A stretch of DNA of 64,000 nt from the human T2T-CHM13v2.0 reference genome, Homo sapiens. Below the pieces are notes generated by a model, which did not search any database, was not told where the DNA came from, and saw only the letters and a program-made list of their open reading frames with translations. Position 1 is the stretch's first letter, and each line of letters starts with the position of its first letter. This document shows, in pieces, positions 11,100-60,060 of the stretch. Location of the stretch: assembly GCF_009914755.1 (NCBI RefSeq), contig NC_060943.1, one strand, 5' to 3'. The translations under genes and the position numbers were made by a program.

Positions 11100-12370
11100 T
11101 GGCCTCTCTTGGCTATGTAATATTACATATCTTTCCAGCACTTCTCAATGCCTTCACCTTCTCTTTTCTCCATTATGCCTGCCACATTCTAACATTCCAT
11201 ATAATTTAGCATTTTTTTCATATTTCCTCCTCTTTCTTGAGTACAGCGTAAGCTATTGGGGTCTGTCTCTTGTTTTGTAAATGTCCCATGCAGTTAAGAT
11301 AGTGTCTGAAATACAGTAGGTGTTCCTTGAATATTTCTTAGAACTATGAATAAGCATAATACTACAGCATCCCTGTTCACCTTAATATTCTGATAGCACT
11401 TTCTAAATGTTTTCTTTACTTCTCCTTCCAGGTATTATTGAGTGTTTTCAAGAATGAAAAGAGGCCTGGCATGGTGGCTCACATCTGTAATCCCAACTTT
11501 TTGGGAGGCTGAGGTGGGAGGATCCCTTGAGCCCAAGAGTTTGAGGCTGCAGCAAGCTATGATCGTGCCACTACACTCCAGCCTGTGCAACACAGTGAGA
11601 TCCTGTCTCCAAAATTAAATAAATAAATAAAATTACATTTTGGAGACTAAACGCTGCTTGTAGTCATAGTTCTAACACAGCTGTGTGCTCAGCTTCATTT
11701 GCTCACTTCTCAGAATTCAATGTCTCCTGCTCAAATTTTGCTGTCATCTTAACCGTTTTCACTTATCACAGATATGTTTCTCCAGGTCCATTTCGTCATG
11801 TATCTGTGAATAACTACAGAATTATTAACTTTGAGTAATTTGGCCGGGCGCGGGGGCTCTCCTGTAATCCCAGCACTTTGGGAGGCTGAGGCGGGCAGAT
11901 CACGAGGTCAGGAGATCGAGACCATCCTGGCTAACACGGTGAAACCCCATCTCTACTAAAAATACAAAAAGTTAGCCGGGCATGGTGGCAGGCGCCTGTA
12001 ATCCCAGCTACTCCGGAGGCTGAGGCAGGAGAATAGTGTGAACCTGGGAGGCGGAGCCTGCAGTGAGCTATGGTCGCACCACTGCACTCCAGCCTGGGCG
12101 ACTGAGCAAGACTCCGTCTCAAAAAAAAAAAACACAAAACAACTTTTGAGTAATTTAAACAATTCACAAATGTTTTTGTCTTTCTTTCCCCATACACTCG
12201 CCCTTTTCTTTTTTAAAACCATAAATAAATCTCAATTCTCAATTCAGACACTGTCGGTGTAATTGCAGGTGAAATGAGAATCACCTCCCAGCCAAGAAAT
12301 CTGATCCCAATTTTCCAAATCTTTATTTCTGGGTTCAGACACCACATTTTCAGCCCCTGTCTTGGCATAT
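11100..12370 (+). pseudogene. Putative class C GPCR relic, copy A (exon 1-2 remnants, Alu-interrupted)
   Basis: 12245-12345 is homologous to revcomp 26345-26450 and to 58910-59005; acceptor cacag|a tat gtt tct cca ggt cca ttt cgt at 11772; 11105-11200 resembles revcomp 30160-30250. Confidence 0.45.
11842..12140 (+). mobile_element. AluY-like element
   Basis: Diagnostic gagatcgagaccatcctggctaacacgg; TSD aact(t)ttgagtaattt. Confidence 0.88.
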
Positions 12371-13039
12371 AAAAGCATTTATAATGGTTCTTCTTTTCAG
12401 ATAAGAAACATCACCAAAAGGAAATAGATATATCTCAACTTTTGGGCTAGGAACTCTCATTTGGATAAAAGAATATTTCTCCTTTGGTTGGACATTAGTG
12501 ACCATACAGGCAGGAAAGGTGCCTTCCTTGACCACCTTCTCTCGCCTGTCTTCCTCCTCATGGTTCTCTCAGGTATTTTTTTTCTGAGGAAACCAGAGGA
12601 AGAGCTCTATATTAGTCCACTTGCCTCAGGGAGCTCCAGCATCCCTCCATAGCCACTGTCTGGAGACCATTCTTCCACTCCATGGCCCTGCCTGGGGACA
12701 ATTCTCTGTTAACTCTGACCCAACTGAGGCTCACAAAACTGACTCAAAGCTTCCCTCTACAGTACACATATTTTTTAAATGAAGGAAATTTGACTGAACT
12801 ATGAGTGGACTCAGAGTGACATTGGATGTTGTGTGTCCATTTGGTGGTGTGGCTTCAGGGAACATCTGTAAGAATATATCCCAATATTTCGGGGATCCCT
12901 GCAGACCTCACTACACAAGACCTGGTTGAGGGTCCTTTAAAAGGAGCGAAGCCACGCCCTGACCTCAGAGTCTCAGGGCATAATTTCTCAGCGCCCCTCG
13001 CAGTACCATTTGGCCTTTGCCCAGCGTGCAGGGGAGTTA

Positions 13040-13720
13040 GCCGTCACCACGGCCAAGTGCACATGAGAACTGCATTGCCCAGAAACCTGTGCGCCGCCCG
13101 GCGGCGGCACTCTTAGGGGCGTCTCCCTGCGGACGGAAGCTCTCTGGGCGGGACTTCCGGTATCTTCCTCGCGGTGGACATCTTGTCGGCTCTTAGGTGG
13201 AACCATCGGAGCAGAAGCTCGGGGTTGCTGGGCGGTTCCGAGGTGACGGAAGCGGGAGGGTGCGGGAGAAGTCGCTGTTCGCTCTGCGGAGTGGCTCGCC
13301 AGCGAAGACCCCGCCTGCGCCCCCGGGGACGGACGACCGCGGTGCCAGGGTCCCGCGACCTGGGACCCCCTCGCGGCTCCGGGTGGTCTACGAACTGTGA
13401 TGGCGGCGGCCGCGGTGATGGGCCCGGCGCAGGTGGGTGCTGCCTTTCCCAGACTTTCGCCCGCCCCAAATCCTGAAGTTCCAAATGAGGAGCGCCTGTC
13501 TGAGTCCCTGCAGCGCAGGCCCCAGTGTCCAAGGCAGCGGGGCGCTGGTGGGTGGGGGCGAGTGTGACTGGCAGAGGGGCAGCCTGAGCATAGGTTTGGA
13601 GCTGGACTGAGCCCGTAGCAGTCGGGAGCGTGTGTGAACCGTAGTCAGGCCTGCAATGTCGAGGGGAGAAGTTGCTCCTTCATTGCGAGGACGATAGGAG
13701 CCATGGCGGGTTTTGAATGG
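13040..13720 (+). promoter_or_regulatory. ZNF134: ZNF134 CpG-island promoter / exon 1
   Basis: CpG-dense; ZNF143-like ACTGCATTGCCCAGAAACC at 13069-13087; ETS-like GGAA/TTCC cores at ~13134-13160 and ~13247; donor CAG|gtgggt at 13433. Confidence 0.88.
13400..13432 (+). other. ZNF134: Ancestral KRAB-ZNF start MAAAAVMGPAQ, now the 5' part of a predicted uORF
   Basis: gtgATGg strong Kozak; 11 codons to a phase-0 donor; family-typical MAAA..PAQ leader, compare ZNF211 [10 protein letters not shown]. Confidence 0.75.
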
Positions 13721-57430: not shown

Positions 57431-58792
57431 ATAATAATACACACCAAAAATATTCACGGCTCAAGAAGTAATATACTTCCTGCCGGGTGCAGTGGCTCAG
57501 GCCTGTAATCCCAGCACTTTGGGAGGCCGAGGCAGGTAGATCACCTGAGATCAGGAGTTCAAGACTAGCTTGGCCAACATGGCGAAACCCCGTCCCTACT
57601 AAAAAGGCAAAAATTAGCTAGGCATGGTGGCACGTGCCTGTAATCCCAGCTACTTGGGAGGCTGAGGCAGGAGAATCACTTGAACCCAGAAGACAGAAGT
57701 TGCAGTGTACCAATATCATGCCATTGCACTCCAGCCTGGGCAGCAGAGTGAGACTGTGTCTCAAAAAAAAAAAAAAAAAAAAGAAGTAATATATTCCCAA
57801 ATTGCTCTCAAAAATACTCTTCCTTAATCTTATAAAGAACATCTGCAAAATCCTAGAGTAAATACAATAACTCATGGTCCATTATTAAAATATTTTCGGG
57901 ACCAGAAACCAAAGGAGGATGGTCACTGTCTGCACATATAGTCAATTATATTGAAAGTCCTGTCTCATGCAATTAGGTGAGACAAGAAATATATAATCTG
58001 TAAAGAAGAAAGAAAGCTAAGTTCCTCGCCCCCTTAAAATATATCTTAAATGTCATTTTCACTGTAAGTCCTACTATGAACACCTGATTTACTGTTTCAC
58101 CCCATCCTTACCAACTTTACTTCTCAGCTGTATCCTGCTCTATAGGACCCATCATTTTCTAATACACTATCAGCCGAATAACATGGGTGCTTTGCTTACT
58201 GCTTACTGTCTGTTTCTATCAACTAAGTCTAAGTTCCATGTAGGCAATTTTCTTTTTAATTTTGTGTGTTGATATACCCCATATAATGAAAAAATGACCT
58301 GACCCACAAAAAATATGCAATAATTTTTTTTGAGGGGCAGAGCCTTGCTATGTTGTCCAGGCTGGAGTTCAGTGGCATGATCACAGCTAACAGCAGCCTC
58401 GAACTCTCAAAACTCTTGGGTTCAAAGGATCCTCCTGCTTCTGCCTCCCAAAGTGCTGGTATTGCAAGTGGGAGCCGCTGCACCTGGTCTCAATAAATAG
58501 TTTTTGAAACACTGAAGAAATATGACATACCAATTTCCTATTCATTTTTACCTCTCCAGAAATTCTGTCTAATTCATTCACTGTCTCTACCTTCAAGTTA
58601 CCTTTGTTCTATGGGATGACTAAAAAACTCACACACAGCTCTATATTCTGCTACCAAAACCTTCAAAGCGGCCAGGAATCCAGCAGAGCCATATTCTCAC
58701 CTTCATTCTCTTTCTCCTTAGATCTTGCTGTCCTCTGCTTACCTACCCTACAGATCAATTTTATTTTTACTTTTTCATTTTTTCCTACATAG

Positions 58793-60060
58793 GGTGCTCC
58801 TCAGCTACTTCTGTCATTCCTATTAGATATCTTTATGATTCACCATTAATAGTTTCAGTAATATACACAATACTCAAATGTTCTTCGCAAATAACCTCCA
58901 TTCTCCTTACAGATGGTCGCTGCAATTACAGGTGAAGTGATAACCACTTCCCAGCAAAAAGGTGAGATCAGGGAGTTCCAAATCTTTATCTCAGGTTCAG
59001 ATGTCCTTTCCACACCTGTACAGATGCCGTCACTCCATCATTCTGACACCAGATGCCAAGTGAGTAACTCATGCTTTTCAAGTAAGTTTCAGGTCCTTAG
59101 ATGGAAACTATCTCAGAAAATTCAGTATTAATTGTTCTCTGTAAAACATTTCTGGGTTTGGAACACGAAAGAGTTTATATAGCAGGAAGGTCATTTGCTG
59201 AGAAAACTAGACACACATAGCATCCTGTCTATATGCCACAGATAAAGACTTGATGCTACAGACATGTTAAGAACAGTTAGATGACAATGGTGAGCTCTTG
59301 GTACTGTGCAGATACCTGGTGTCTGTGAGAGAGGTGCTGATATGTGCATTTCTTCTGTGAAACAGCAGGTTGTGCAAACTGGAATCTGTAATGTCTCCAC
59401 ATTCTGTCATCAGCAGAAGACTCTGAACATTTTTCTACCGTTTAAATGAGTCTCAATTATCCAATTTATAATAATGCAAATTTTACTTACAGATAAATAT
59501 GGGGGAGTAGAGGAGGGTTGTGAGTTTCAGCCATGAAAAATTCATGGAGCTTAAAAATTCCTAAGTATCTCACCCTGCAAACAGATAATTATATTTCTAA
59601 AAGTGTCTTGACATTCTCATTCTCATGTACTCACAGTACTCTTCTCTATCCTCAAAGTTTCTGAATTGCTTCTCTGTTCCTGTCTCCTCTGTTATTCTGC
59701 CTCCCTCCTCCCTTCCTTGCCTAGTTTAAGTGGATTTTTAGCAAACAAAAGTGTTGACTAGAGGCTGTGAGTGAAGGGCATTTTTACCTCCCCTGGCCCC
59801 CAGTGTAGATTCCTCTTCTGTCTACACAGAATCCTTCAGATCAGGATAAAATTGAGCCTTCCTTACTAGTTACTACGATTTTTGAAGAATTGGTGTGATT
59901 GATAACCACAGCAACAGTGTTTGGACTTTAGAGAAACTTTATTCATGCCCACACTATGTCTACTGACCTACATTTTGTTACTTAAATTCATTTTAAGATT
60001 TCTCTTCCAAAAGTTTTCCAGTTATTCTCCTCTTTTGATTCATTGATCCCCTATATTTTT
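58793..60060 (+). pseudogene. Putative class C GPCR relic, copy C (exon 2 58793-59059, exon 3 remnants)
   Basis: Acceptor cctacatag|g; VAAITG...QMP; donor |gtgagt at 59060; downstream QTGIC (~59375), V(*L)ITTA (~59893) and HFKISLPKVFQ (~59990). Confidence 0.5.

What the first reader, a model, noticed from the sequence alone, without database searches (positions are those of the whole stretch)
11100..60060. Three paralogous copies of the same fossil alternate with the KRAB-ZNF genes, suggesting a ZNF + receptor co-duplication unit
Seen: 12245-12345 (+; gacactgtcggtgtaattgcaggtg...ttccaaatctttatttctgggttcagac), 26450-26345 (-; gacactgtcactgcaattacaggtg...tcccaaaccttattctcagagttcagatg) and 58910-59005 (+; gtcgctgcaattacaggtg...ttccaaatctttatctcaggttcagatg) are clearly homologous. 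One copy follows each of ZNF530, ZNF134 and ZNF211. Knowledge (recalled): mouse proximal chr7 interleaves Vmn2r genes with Zik1/Zscan4-type loci. Inference: the cluster expanded by duplicating a ZNF + V2R cassette (with one inversion) and only the ZNF half survived. The paralogy holds even if the V2R identity is wrong.
Basis: partly seen in the sequence, partly recalled or inferred. Interest (0 to 1): 0.72.

Follow-up and report, generated by a model that had tools for sequence, protein, structure and literature searches.

The report
Old non-coding exon module between ZNF genes
The three look-alike stretches are real copies of an old, non-coding, exon-like DNA module that was copied along with zinc-finger genes on chromosome 19, and its only receptor link is to the upstream region of V1R, not V2R, pheromone-receptor genes.

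Summary
The three stretches are homologous, with genome-wide E of 3e-10 and 2e-6.

- Each unit is about 0.3-0.5 kb, not 100 bp.
- I found at least 26 copies in the T2T genome.
- Fourteen copies lie in chr19 KRAB-ZNF clusters ("Z" clade, which includes the window's three).
- Twelve form a separate clade ("V"). Seven of these sit 1.5-3.5 kb upstream, on the same strand, of V1R coding sequence.

The core looks like an exon, with a polypyrimidine-AG acceptor and a G|GTAAGT donor. It shows no codon periodicity and matches no Pfam family. Copy 3 still serves as an exon of long ZSCAN4 transcripts.

V2R identity failed every test, although true V2R pseudogenes in the same genome were found by the same tests.

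Co-duplication with ZNF genes is supported, because homology runs unbroken from the module into ZNF promoters or out of ZNF finger exons.
- Copy 1 belongs to the 5' flank of ZNF134.
- ZNF530's own copy lies 2 kb before the window.
- ZNF211 has the homologous promoter but no module.

No receptor coding relic lies in the window.

Verdict: an ordinary by-product of tandem gene duplication, with a modestly interesting V1R connection.

The parts
12139..12406 (+). Copy c1 of the module. The exon-like core is at about 12226-12385, and its donor has decayed. It ends 545 bp upstream of the ZNF134 CpG island.
   Evidence: nhmmer profile match (c1 was one of the sequences the profile was built from). blastn to c3 at 72.7% over 117 nt. 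CpG island at 12951-13751. Promoter block downstream is colinear with c4, c6 and c7.
11655..11842 (+). Upstream part of c1, separated from the core by an inserted Alu.
   Evidence: MAFFT alignment with the Alu skipped. Colinear weak blastn hits 11671-11731 to c3 and 11756-11824 to c2. nhmmer match 11766-11842 at E 0.52.
11843..12145 (+). Alu insertion that splits copy c1.
   Evidence: More than 30 Alu-like self-hits in the window. Listed as masked 11835-12145 in the hub annotation.
26180..26679 (-). Copy c2 of the module, inverted. The exon-like core is 26297-26470, with an intact tttttttcag| acceptor and TTTG|gtaagt donor. It is an orphan: no ZNF promoter block is attached.
   Evidence: Sequence read. 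blastn to c3 at 61% over 431 columns. nhmmer match 26272-26576. Closest relative found is c13 at C19:37.47 Mb, 71% over 226 nt, E 4e-23.
58656..59169 (+). Copy c3 of the module. The ancestral acceptor is lost, a new AG at 58912 is used, and the family's conserved donor position after 59059 is still used.
   Evidence: Sequence read. nhmmer match 58783-59087. 14-copy alignment. The hub annotation lists exons 58913-59059 and 58391-59059 of alternative ZSCAN4 transcripts.
12900..14100 (+). ZNF134 promoter and first-exon block, colinear with the blocks that follow copies c4, c5, c6 and c7.
   Evidence: Best-HSP identities of 57-67% over 224-1219 nt. Colinear hits at +402..+1934 from the module centre.
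31991..33290 (+). ZNF211 promoter block. It is homologous to the block that follows c7 at ZNF530, but has no module upstream. A 70-nt remnant of the module-to-promoter spacer lies at 30994-31063.
   Evidence: blastn at 58% over 1366 columns, E 6e-42, to offsets +706..+1983 from c7. The 30994-31063 stretch matches +309..+378 of c1, E 4e-4. nhmmer finds no further copy in the window.

Best explanation
The three stretches belong to a low-copy family of at least 26 copies. Each copy is an old, non-coding, exon-like module of about 0.3-0.5 kb. The core is about 175-185 nt, and the ancestor had a polypyrimidine-AG acceptor and a strong G|GTAAGT donor.

The window copies belong to the 'Z' clade. This clade is a fixed landmark of the spacer between head-to-tail KRAB-ZNF genes on chr19. 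The inferred ancestral layout was: finger exon, then about 0.6-1.5 kb, then the module, then about 0.5 kb, then the CpG-island promoter of the next gene. The module spread passively each time such a unit was tandemly duplicated.

Its sister 'V' clade is the upstream block of one V1R vomeronasal-receptor subfamily, and probably holds the first non-coding exon and promoter. So the module and a V1R 5' module share one origin. The direction of transfer is unresolved.

The module is not V2R and shows no sign of having coded for protein while it was being copied. Because the donor site survives in some copies, a copy can be picked up as a 5' exon, as c3 is in long ZSCAN4 transcripts.

Shown: homology, copy number and locations, colinearity with ZNF promoters and finger exons, the V1R association of the sister clade, the absence of V2R and V1R coding signal, and the absence of codon periodicity.
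Inferred: the ancestral spacer layout, that the ancestor was a real exon, and the shared origin with a V1R first exon.
For: Family and location:
- Nine DNA queries and one peptide query against the whole genome returned only family members. The one other return was a set of CT-rich low-complexity hits.
- Five copies that were not used to build the profile score nhmmer E 2.5e-49 to 1.4e-18.
- 10 of 11 V-type loci score E 1e-13 to 9e-4 with the profile built from Z copies only.

Exon shape:
- In the 14-copy alignment, 10-11 of 14 copies keep an AG after a T-rich tract, and 6 of 14 keep GT[AG]AGT at the aligned donor (one more has GC).
- c3's annotated exon ends at that donor (hub annotation).

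Link to ZNF units:
- A CpG island lies 463-1111 bp downstream on the same strand for c1, c4, c5, c6 and c7.
- There is continuous colinear homology from the module into the promoter, and from finger exons into the module.
- Module and promoter identities rank the pairs alike; c5-c6 is highest in both, at 70% and 75%.

Link to V1R:
- The ORF L026:970-1365(-), below c12, matches PF03402 at E 1.9e-10.
- 7 of 12 V-clade copies have V1R coding matches 1.5-3.5 kb downstream on the same strand.
- In the intact V1R locus L037 the module (E 4.7e-14) lies 3.3 kb upstream. A polypyrimidine-CAG acceptor sits 48 nt before the ATG.
- The V clade is monophyletic: 100% ultrafast bootstrap, stem length 0.405.

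Literature (passages read):
- Mouse V1R genes have one coding exon plus 1-2 short 5' untranslated exons. Conserved upstream blocks are duplicated along with the gene (PMC1955453).
- Human VN1R4 lies in a mammalian V1R hotspot syntenic to mouse chr7 (PMC6944220).
Against: - No V1R coding relic lies within about 5 kb of any Z-clade copy tested. This covers the window and 10 loci. The best tblastn score, E 0.012, is a spurious antisense hit in ZNF211's finger exon.
- In c1, c4, c5 and c7 only about 0.5 kb separates the module from the ZNF CpG island (1.1 kb in c6), leaving no room for a receptor exon. The Z clade may therefore never have belonged to a V1R gene.
- The tree is unrooted, and deep nodes in the Z clade have 43-72% support.
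- 5 of 12 V-clade copies have no V1R match listed. One of them, c23, faces away from the nearest V1R. Those scans scored only 134 of 248 and 131 of 195 candidates.
- An origin from an old transposable element could not be tested, because no Dfam or RepeatMasker was available.
- The core is only modestly better conserved than its flanks: mean pairwise difference 0.39 against 0.46 and 0.50. Present-day function is therefore doubtful.
Confidence: 0.7

Rival explanations
1. Each copy is an exon of a V2R (class-C) vomeronasal-receptor pseudogene. A ZNF + V2R cassette was duplicated, and only the ZNF half survived.
For: - Real V2R pseudogenes exist on the same chromosome arm, at C19:61.11 Mb and 59.41-59.44 Mb.
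- Read by eye, the peptide '...NPLGDTVTAITG...' loosely resembles the class-C exon that begins '...FTNNMGEQVTF...' in CASR.
Against: - No 7tm_3 or ANF_receptor match at any of the copies.
- The CASR exon-5 peptide finds V2R pseudogene exons at E 2.4e-6 and 1.1e-5, and also TAS1R and GPRC6A exons. For the copies it gives only E of 0.17 or worse, in mixed frames and strands.
- The class-C exon HMM gives a best E of 0.047 over 84 frames.
- tblastx of the window against 10 class-C loci finds nothing at the copies.
- The nhmmer profile of the copies does not hit the V2R pseudogene loci.
- The exon length, about 183 nt, fits no V2R exon size (exon sizes are recalled, not tested).
- There is no codon periodicity.
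Confidence: 0.03
2. The module is native to the KRAB-ZNF spacer, for example an old upstream or read-through non-coding exon of ZNF genes. One V1R subfamily later acquired a copy as its 5' exon and promoter. In this model the receptor link is secondary.
For: - The Z clade is deep and star-like, with terminal branches of about 0.10-0.32 (mostly 0.15-0.3).
- The V clade has a younger crown on a long stem of 0.405. That is what a single late capture followed by faster change would give.
- Z copies have AG acceptors, while V copies lack the AG at that site (alignment).
- The spacing to ZNF promoters is tight and conserved.
Against: - The tree is unrooted, so the reverse direction fits equally well.
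- No transcript evidence shows that Z copies other than c3 are exons.
- This reading is a sub-case of the best explanation, not a contradiction of it.
Confidence: 0.25
3. The module is a fragment of a very old, low-copy interspersed repeat. It landed independently near a ZNF ancestor and near a V1R ancestor, and each copy was then amplified along with its host gene.
For: - The unit is about 0.5 kb, with no coding signal.
- There are two clades separated by a long branch.
- Very old repeats are invisible to copy-against-copy blastn.
Against: - Whole-genome searches that did detect 65-70% identical family members found no copy outside ZNF clusters and V1R blocks.
- The ancestor had a well-formed acceptor and a consensus donor at exon-like spacing.
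- There are no Rfam matches in the window.
Confidence: 0.12
4. The module is a relic of a coding exon from some other, now lost, gene that once lay among the ZNF genes.
For: - The c8 copy is open for 114 codons (L022:4690-5031), and several other copies are open across the match.
- Splice sites flank the core.
Against: - Pairwise differences at codon positions 1, 2 and 3 are 0.401, 0.379 and 0.394. Permutation p values in the three frames are 0.44, 0.33 and 0.71.
- c8 and c9 share a 1-nt insertion that the other 12 copies lack, so c8's long frame is not ancestral.
- No Pfam family is shared.
- No protein relatives were found for P0003 among longer proteins.
Confidence: 0.05

Closest known systems
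Duplicated upstream blocks of V1R genes: promoter plus 1-2 short 5' untranslated exons (mouse; Stewart & Lane 2007, PMC1955453, passages read)
   Same: - The V-clade copies sit 1.5-3.5 kb upstream of V1R coding sequence on the same strand (7 of 12 copies).
- They end in a splice donor.
- They are duplicated together with the receptor block.
- The intact V1R in L037 has an acceptor 48 nt before its ATG.
   Different: - The window copies (Z clade) have no V1R coding sequence nearby. In the five copies with a nearby CpG island (c1, c4-c7) it lies 0.46-1.1 kb downstream, at the ZNF134 and ZNF530 promoters for c1 and c7.
- Most Z copies also carry an AG acceptor, so they look like internal rather than first exons.
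- No RACE or CAGE evidence was available for the human copies.
Tandem segmental duplication units of chr19 KRAB-ZNF clusters
   Same: - The copies lie between head-to-tail ZNF genes.
- Homology is colinear with the neighbouring promoter or finger exon.
- Close neighbours are the closest relatives: c5-c6; c10, c14 and c11; and c14 with its 96% identical twin.
   Different: This is a discrete spacer landmark that has stayed recognisable between clusters 23 Mb apart (c2 against c13, 71%), while the rest of the spacer has mostly decayed.
V2R (Vmn2r) pseudogenes of the human genome
   Same: Same chromosome arm and the same kind of object, namely a vomeronasal fossil.
   Different: None of the defining exons is present. 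The tests that recover true V2R pseudogenes fail on the copies.

Membership tests
V2R / class-C GPCR pseudogene | 7tm_3 exon (PF00003) at or near the copy | tested here: not met
   Genome scan: 59 matches from 68 of 68 candidates scored. None lies in the window or at any of the 26 copies. The nearest are C19:61109565-61110201 and 59.41-59.44 Mb.
V2R / class-C GPCR pseudogene | ANF_receptor exons (PF01094) | tested here: not met
   110 matches from 110 of 110 candidates scored. None lies in the window or at a copy.
V2R / class-C GPCR pseudogene | Similarity of the copy itself to a class-C exon (the equivalent of CASR exon 5, which Pfam does not cover) | tested here: not met
   - tblastn positive controls: L035 at E 2.4e-6, L005 at E 1.1e-5. 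The copies score E of 0.17 or worse.
- An HMM built from 6 class-C exons scores at best E 0.047 over 84 frames.
- Pfam, which includes NCD3G, was run on 42 sense frames. No family is shared among the copies.
V1R upstream module (5' untranslated exon / promoter block) | Lies less than 10 kb upstream of a V1R coding exon, on the same strand | tested here: inconclusive
   Met for 7 of 12 V-clade copies, at 1.5-3.5 kb. Not met for 0 of 3 window copies, nor for the Z-clade loci tested, which were the window plus 10 loci.
V1R upstream module (5' untranslated exon / promoter block) | Ends in a splice donor that pairs with an acceptor just upstream of the V1R ATG | tested here: met
   A donor sits at the aligned site in c12 and in 5 other copies of the 14 aligned. 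L037 has a polypyrimidine-CAG 48 nt before the ATG and a GTAAGT donor 65 nt past the decayed ancestral one. This is sequence evidence only.
V1R upstream module (5' untranslated exon / promoter block) | Present in V1R transcripts (RACE, CAGE or RNA-seq) | not testable with these tools
   No transcript data were available, apart from the hub annotation, which shows c3 as a ZSCAN4 exon.
Component of a KRAB-ZNF tandem duplication unit | Homology colinear and continuous with the neighbouring ZNF promoter or finger exon in several paralogues | tested here: met
   - c4 against c7: -159..+1320.
- c4 against c5: -120..+1684.
- c1 against c6: +402..+1934.
- c11 against c14: finger exons through to the module.
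- Promoter identity table.
Interspersed repeat (transposable element) | Many dispersed copies unrelated to host-gene duplications | tested here: not met
   26 copies, all in ZNF clusters or V1R blocks. The core pattern has 3 genome hits and 0 control hits.
Interspersed repeat (transposable element) | Match to a curated repeat consensus (Dfam / RepeatMasker) | not testable with these tools
   No repeat library was available. The hub's mask list shows only the longest stretches.
Protein-coding exon under selection | Excess of change at third codon positions among paralogues; a known domain | tested here: not met
   Differences of 0.401, 0.379 and 0.394, with p of 0.33 or higher in all frames. 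No Pfam family.

The most novel reading that the evidence does not exclude
A V1R-type first-exon and promoter module became fused upstream of an ancestral chr19 KRAB-ZNF gene and has been carried by the ZNF expansion ever since (or the reverse: one V1R subfamily runs on a module borrowed from a ZNF spacer). In either case, two gene families known for clustered, heterochromatin-marked expression would share a cis-element of common descent. Surviving copies could still act as alternative 5' exons or promoters, as c3 does for ZSCAN4.
Probability: 0.2. Interest if true: 0.6.

Novelty: new member of a known kind. Interest (0 to 1): 0.35.

Why it matters
The work corrects a tempting but wrong reading. 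No V2R fossil lies here, and there is no evidence for a lost receptor at each ZNF gene.

It also gives a usable marker for reconstructing how the chr19 ZNF clusters grew. A recognisable spacer landmark shows which flank travelled with which gene. It shows ZNF211 as the one of the three promoters that has lost the module, and c2 and c3 as orphan copies.

The homology with the upstream block of a V1R subfamily is a small new link between two families that sit together in the mammalian V1R hotspot. It also explains where an alternative ZSCAN4 5' exon came from.

Otherwise this is the ordinary debris of tandem duplication. There is no sign of present-day constraint beyond slightly slower decay.

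Tried and rejected
- KRAB-B box on the antisense strand. The antisense peptides (GLGxHDLISLL...) looked like a KRAB-B box. I dropped the idea because the conserved AG and GT sites are on the sense strand, the antisense boundaries are not splice sites, and there is no periodicity in any frame.
- 3' end of class-C exon 2 ('...AVVGATGSG...IPQ|gt'). The only hint was an nhmmer match at E 3.9 to the wrong end of GPRC6A exon 2.
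- Covariance or HMM profile search of the whole genome.
- Protein databases. P0003 against longer proteins gave nothing at E of 1 or better. Pfam gave only single weak, unrelated hits.
- Rfam on the whole window: 0 matches.
- Pfam on 136 ORFs of 75 aa or more from five loci. Only the V1R hit was useful; there was also one weak DUF5535 hit.
- Listing all KRAB exons to map neighbouring genes. Only 150 of 693 candidates were scored, so it was of little use.
- Paper searches for ZSCAN4 + vomeronasal + pseudogene, and for V2R + pseudogenes + human + chromosome 19 + zinc finger: 0 papers each.
Whether VN1R1 carries a module is therefore not tested. None of the DNA queries hit near it.
- A gene tree of the ZNF genes themselves was not built. 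KRAB-A is too short and finger arrays undergo conversion. Colinearity and promoter identities were used instead.

Full report
**1. The observation.**

The three stretches are present as described. Within the window, blastn aligns c3 58876-59012(+) with c2 26336-26483(-) at 70.9% over 148 nt (E 6e-14). It aligns c3 58889-59001 with c1 12223-12339(+) at 72.7% over 117 nt (E 4e-10).

With c3 as the query against the whole 3.1-Gb assembly, the only three matches are c3 itself, c2 (E 3.0e-10) and c1 (E 1.9e-6). With c2 or c1 as the query, each finds only itself and c3. A degenerate pattern built from two conserved core blocks occurs three times in the genome, and its reversed control occurs zero times. 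The similarity is therefore real and far beyond chance.

**2.

Under +1/-1 scoring, c2 26180-26599 aligns with c3 58760-59169 (61.5% over 431 columns, E 1e-24). A further colinear piece, 26593-26679 against 58656-58744, extends it.

In c1, an Alu at 11843-12145 splits the unit. With the Alu skipped, c1 11655-11842 aligns with the upstream parts of c2 and c3. Beyond roughly +/-300 bp the three window copies share nothing.

**3. The family is bigger too.**

- A longer c3 query found a fourth copy at C19:60507267-60507461.
- Using that copy as the query gave five more, all on chr19. One is at C19:60695913-60696096, which is window -2088..-1905, just upstream of ZNF530.
- A peptide read from the one fully open copy (P0003) found five further places on chr19. 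One is at 37.47 Mb, 23 Mb away.
- All five, which were not used to build the profile, score nhmmer E 2.5e-49 to 1.4e-18.
- c14 has a 96% identical twin at C19:60959161.
- The c12 copy as the query brought in eleven more, on chr19, 18, 16, 8 and 9.

In total I count 26 copies. This is a lower bound, because the search tool scores only its best candidates.

**4. Anatomy.**

The 14-copy alignment shows a core preceded by a T-rich tract and AG in 10-11 of 14 copies. It is followed by TTTG|GTAAGT-like sequence. GT[AG]AGT is kept at the aligned site in 6 of 14 copies (c2, c3, c8, c9, c12, c13), and c14 has GC there.

- In c8 the core is 183 nt and open.
- In c2 it runs 26470 to 26297, with both splice sites intact.
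- In c3 the ancestral acceptor is gone and an AG at 58912 is used instead. The exon ends after 59059 at the family's donor position. The hub annotation lists exactly this exon (58913-59059) in alternative ZSCAN4 transcripts.

The ancestor therefore looks like a real exon. That is an inference from the splice-site pattern, not something shown.

**5. It did not evolve as coding sequence.**

Mean pairwise differences at codon positions 1, 2 and 3 of the open frame are 0.401, 0.379 and 0.394. No frame shows a third-position excess (permutation p 0.44, 0.33, 0.71).

c8 and c9 share a 1-nt insertion that the other 12 copies lack, so c8's long open frame is not ancestral.

Pfam finds nothing consistent in P0001 and P0002, P0003, or the 42 sense frames of 14 copies read with X at stops. 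A search of longer proteins with P0003 found nothing. Rfam has no match in the window.

The core is only a little better conserved than its flanks (0.39 against 0.46 and 0.50).

**6. The V2R reading fails.**

Six-frame genome scans with 7tm_3 and ANF_receptor list the known class-C genes and several V2R pseudogenes. On chr19 these include C19:61109565-61122880 and 59.41-59.44 Mb. Nothing is listed in the window or at any copy, and all candidates were scored in both scans.

tblastx of the window against ten class-C loci gives nothing at the copies.

Pfam does not cover the class-C exon that the copies vaguely resemble by eye. I therefore took that exon from CASR (L034:2421-2651) and used it as a tblastn query.
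- It finds the equivalent exon in the chr11 V2R pseudogene (E 2.4e-6) and the chr19 V2R pseudogene (E 1.1e-5), and more weakly in TAS1R1, TAS1R2 and GPRC6A.
- For the 14 copies it gives only E of 0.17 or worse, scattered over frames and strands.

An HMM built from six such exons scores at best E 0.047 among 84 frames.

**7. A V1R link instead.**

A Pfam scan of 136 long ORFs around five copies gave one relevant hit. L026:970-1365(-) is V1R (PF03402, E 1.9e-10). It lies 3.5 kb downstream of c12 on the same strand.

I then compared two genome scans with the c12-type copies. One used PF03402 (134 of 248 candidates scored). The other used an intact V1R protein from L037 (131 of 195 scored). The comparison shows V1R coding matches 1.5-3.5 kb downstream on the same strand for 7 of 12 copies:
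- c12
- c16 (C19:55347668+)
- c17 (C19:56350414-)
- c18 (chr18)
- c20 and c21 (chr16)
- c22 (chr8)

Five copies have no listed V1R match. One of them, c23, faces away from the nearest V1R.

In L037 the module (nhmmer E 4.7e-14) lies 3.3 kb upstream of an intact 301-codon V1R ORF. That ORF is preceded, 48 nt before the ATG, by a polypyrimidine-CAG acceptor.

This is the gene layout described for mouse V1Rs: one coding exon, 1-2 short 5' untranslated exons, and a conserved upstream block duplicated with the gene (PMC1955453, passages read). Human VN1R4 lies in a mammalian V1R hotspot syntenic to mouse chr7 (PMC6944220, passages read).

**8. Two clades.**

I built a maximum-likelihood tree of 25 copies from 291 trimmed columns. 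c15 was not fetched. The tree puts all 12 c12-type copies in one clade, with 100% support and a stem length of 0.405. The 13 ZNF-cluster copies fall on the other side.

Within the ZNF-cluster set, only the neighbour groups are well supported: c5-c6, c8-c9 and c10-c14-c11. The three window copies do not form a clade, and c2's best match is c13 at 37.47 Mb (71% over 226 nt).

The profile built only from ZNF-cluster copies still detects 10 of 11 V-type loci at E of 1e-3 or better. The two clades are therefore homologous.

**9. Relation to the ZNF genes.**

A CpG island follows c1, c4, c5, c6 and c7 on the same strand, at 545, 463, 477, 1111 and 589 bp respectively. For c1 it is the ZNF134 promoter, and for c7 the ZNF530 promoter.

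Homology is colinear from the module into that promoter block:
- c4 against c7: -159..+1320
- c4 against c5: -120..+1684
- c1 against c6: +402..+1934
- c1 against c7: +793..+1279

In c11 and c14 the module lies 1.5 and 0.6 kb after the last zinc finger of a same-strand ZNF gene, and the fingers and the module are colinear between the two loci. Module and promoter identities rank the pairs alike.

The simplest reading is that the module is a landmark of the spacer in an ancestral head-to-tail ZNF array and was copied with the unit.

Consequences for the window:
- c1 belongs with ZNF134, not ZNF530.
- ZNF530's own copy lies outside the window.
- ZNF211's promoter (31991-33290) is homologous to the ZNF530 block (58% over 1366 columns, E 6e-42). 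However, only a 70-nt spacer remnant (30994-31063) lies upstream of it, and there is no module.
- c2 (inverted) and c3 carry no promoter block.

**10. No receptor coding relic in the window.**

- PF03402 and the V1R protein scan list nothing in C19:60698001-60762000.
- Frames read through with X for 5-6 kb downstream of c1, c2 and c3 give only a relic KRAB box at 17685.
- tblastn with the intact V1R recovers the c12 relic (E 2.5e-13) but finds nothing in the window or in ten ZNF-cluster loci.

In c1, c4, c5 and c7 about 0.5 kb separates the module from the ZNF CpG island, which leaves no room for a receptor exon.

**11. What remains open.**

- The tree is unrooted. Either a V1R upstream module was fused to a ZNF unit, or a V1R subfamily borrowed a ZNF spacer exon.
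- A very old transposable-element origin cannot be excluded without a repeat library.
- No genomes of other mammals and no transcript data were available.
- Gene names given for copies outside the hub's table would be recalled, so they are left out.
- Both papers were read as search-hit passages only; their supplements were not opened.

**12. Verdict.**

The V2R label is rejected. Co-duplication with ZNF genes is supported, but with a different pairing and on a family-wide scale. The receptor connection that does exist is to V1R upstream blocks in the sister clade. This is a modestly interesting evolutionary marker, not a new kind of system.

Noticed in passing
window 17685-17810 (+): A relic KRAB-A box with an in-frame stop ([24 protein letters not shown]...) lies inside ZNF134 intron 1. 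It matches PF01352 at E 8e-11. ZNF134's annotated coding parts skip it, so ZNF134 looks like a former KRAB-ZNF that lost its KRAB exon.
   Followed up: partly
window 9263-9501 (+) and 21754-21991 (-): An inverted pair of 239-bp stretches, 85-86% identical. They match only each other in the whole genome. One is in the 3' flank of ZNF530 and the other in the ZNF134 3' UTR. The pair is younger than the module family and is unexplained.
   Followed up: partly
L022:4690-5031 (-) (C19:57.66 Mb): The c8 copy sits in a 114-codon open frame with no Pfam family and no protein relatives found. The frame depends on a 1-nt insertion shared only with c9, so it is probably open by chance.
   Followed up: partly
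L022 and L023 (C19:57.66 and 57.78 Mb): c8 and c9 lie in a duplicated block of about 4.5 kb at 70% identity. The block has no KRAB, zinc-finger or V1R signal within 5 kb, and a CT-rich low-complexity tract lies just upstream of the module. The host context of these two copies is unknown.
   Followed up: no
L005/L006 (C19:61108500-61128499, - strand): A multi-exon V2R pseudogene lies about 350 kb distal to the window. It has 7tm_3, ANF_receptor and exon-4-equivalent matches, all with stops. It served as the positive control for the V2R tests.
   Followed up: partly
window 30994-31063 and 31991-33290 (+): The ZNF211 promoter block is homologous to those of ZNF530 and ZNF134. The place where the module should be, at about 30.6-31.3 kb, holds Alu-like sequence instead. 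Either the module was deleted there, or c2 (inverted, 5 kb upstream) is the displaced copy.
   Followed up: partly
C19:56394624-56395527 (+): A V1R pseudogene 89-98% identical in protein to the intact V1R at C19:56346257-56347159, which points to a recent local duplication.
   Followed up: no
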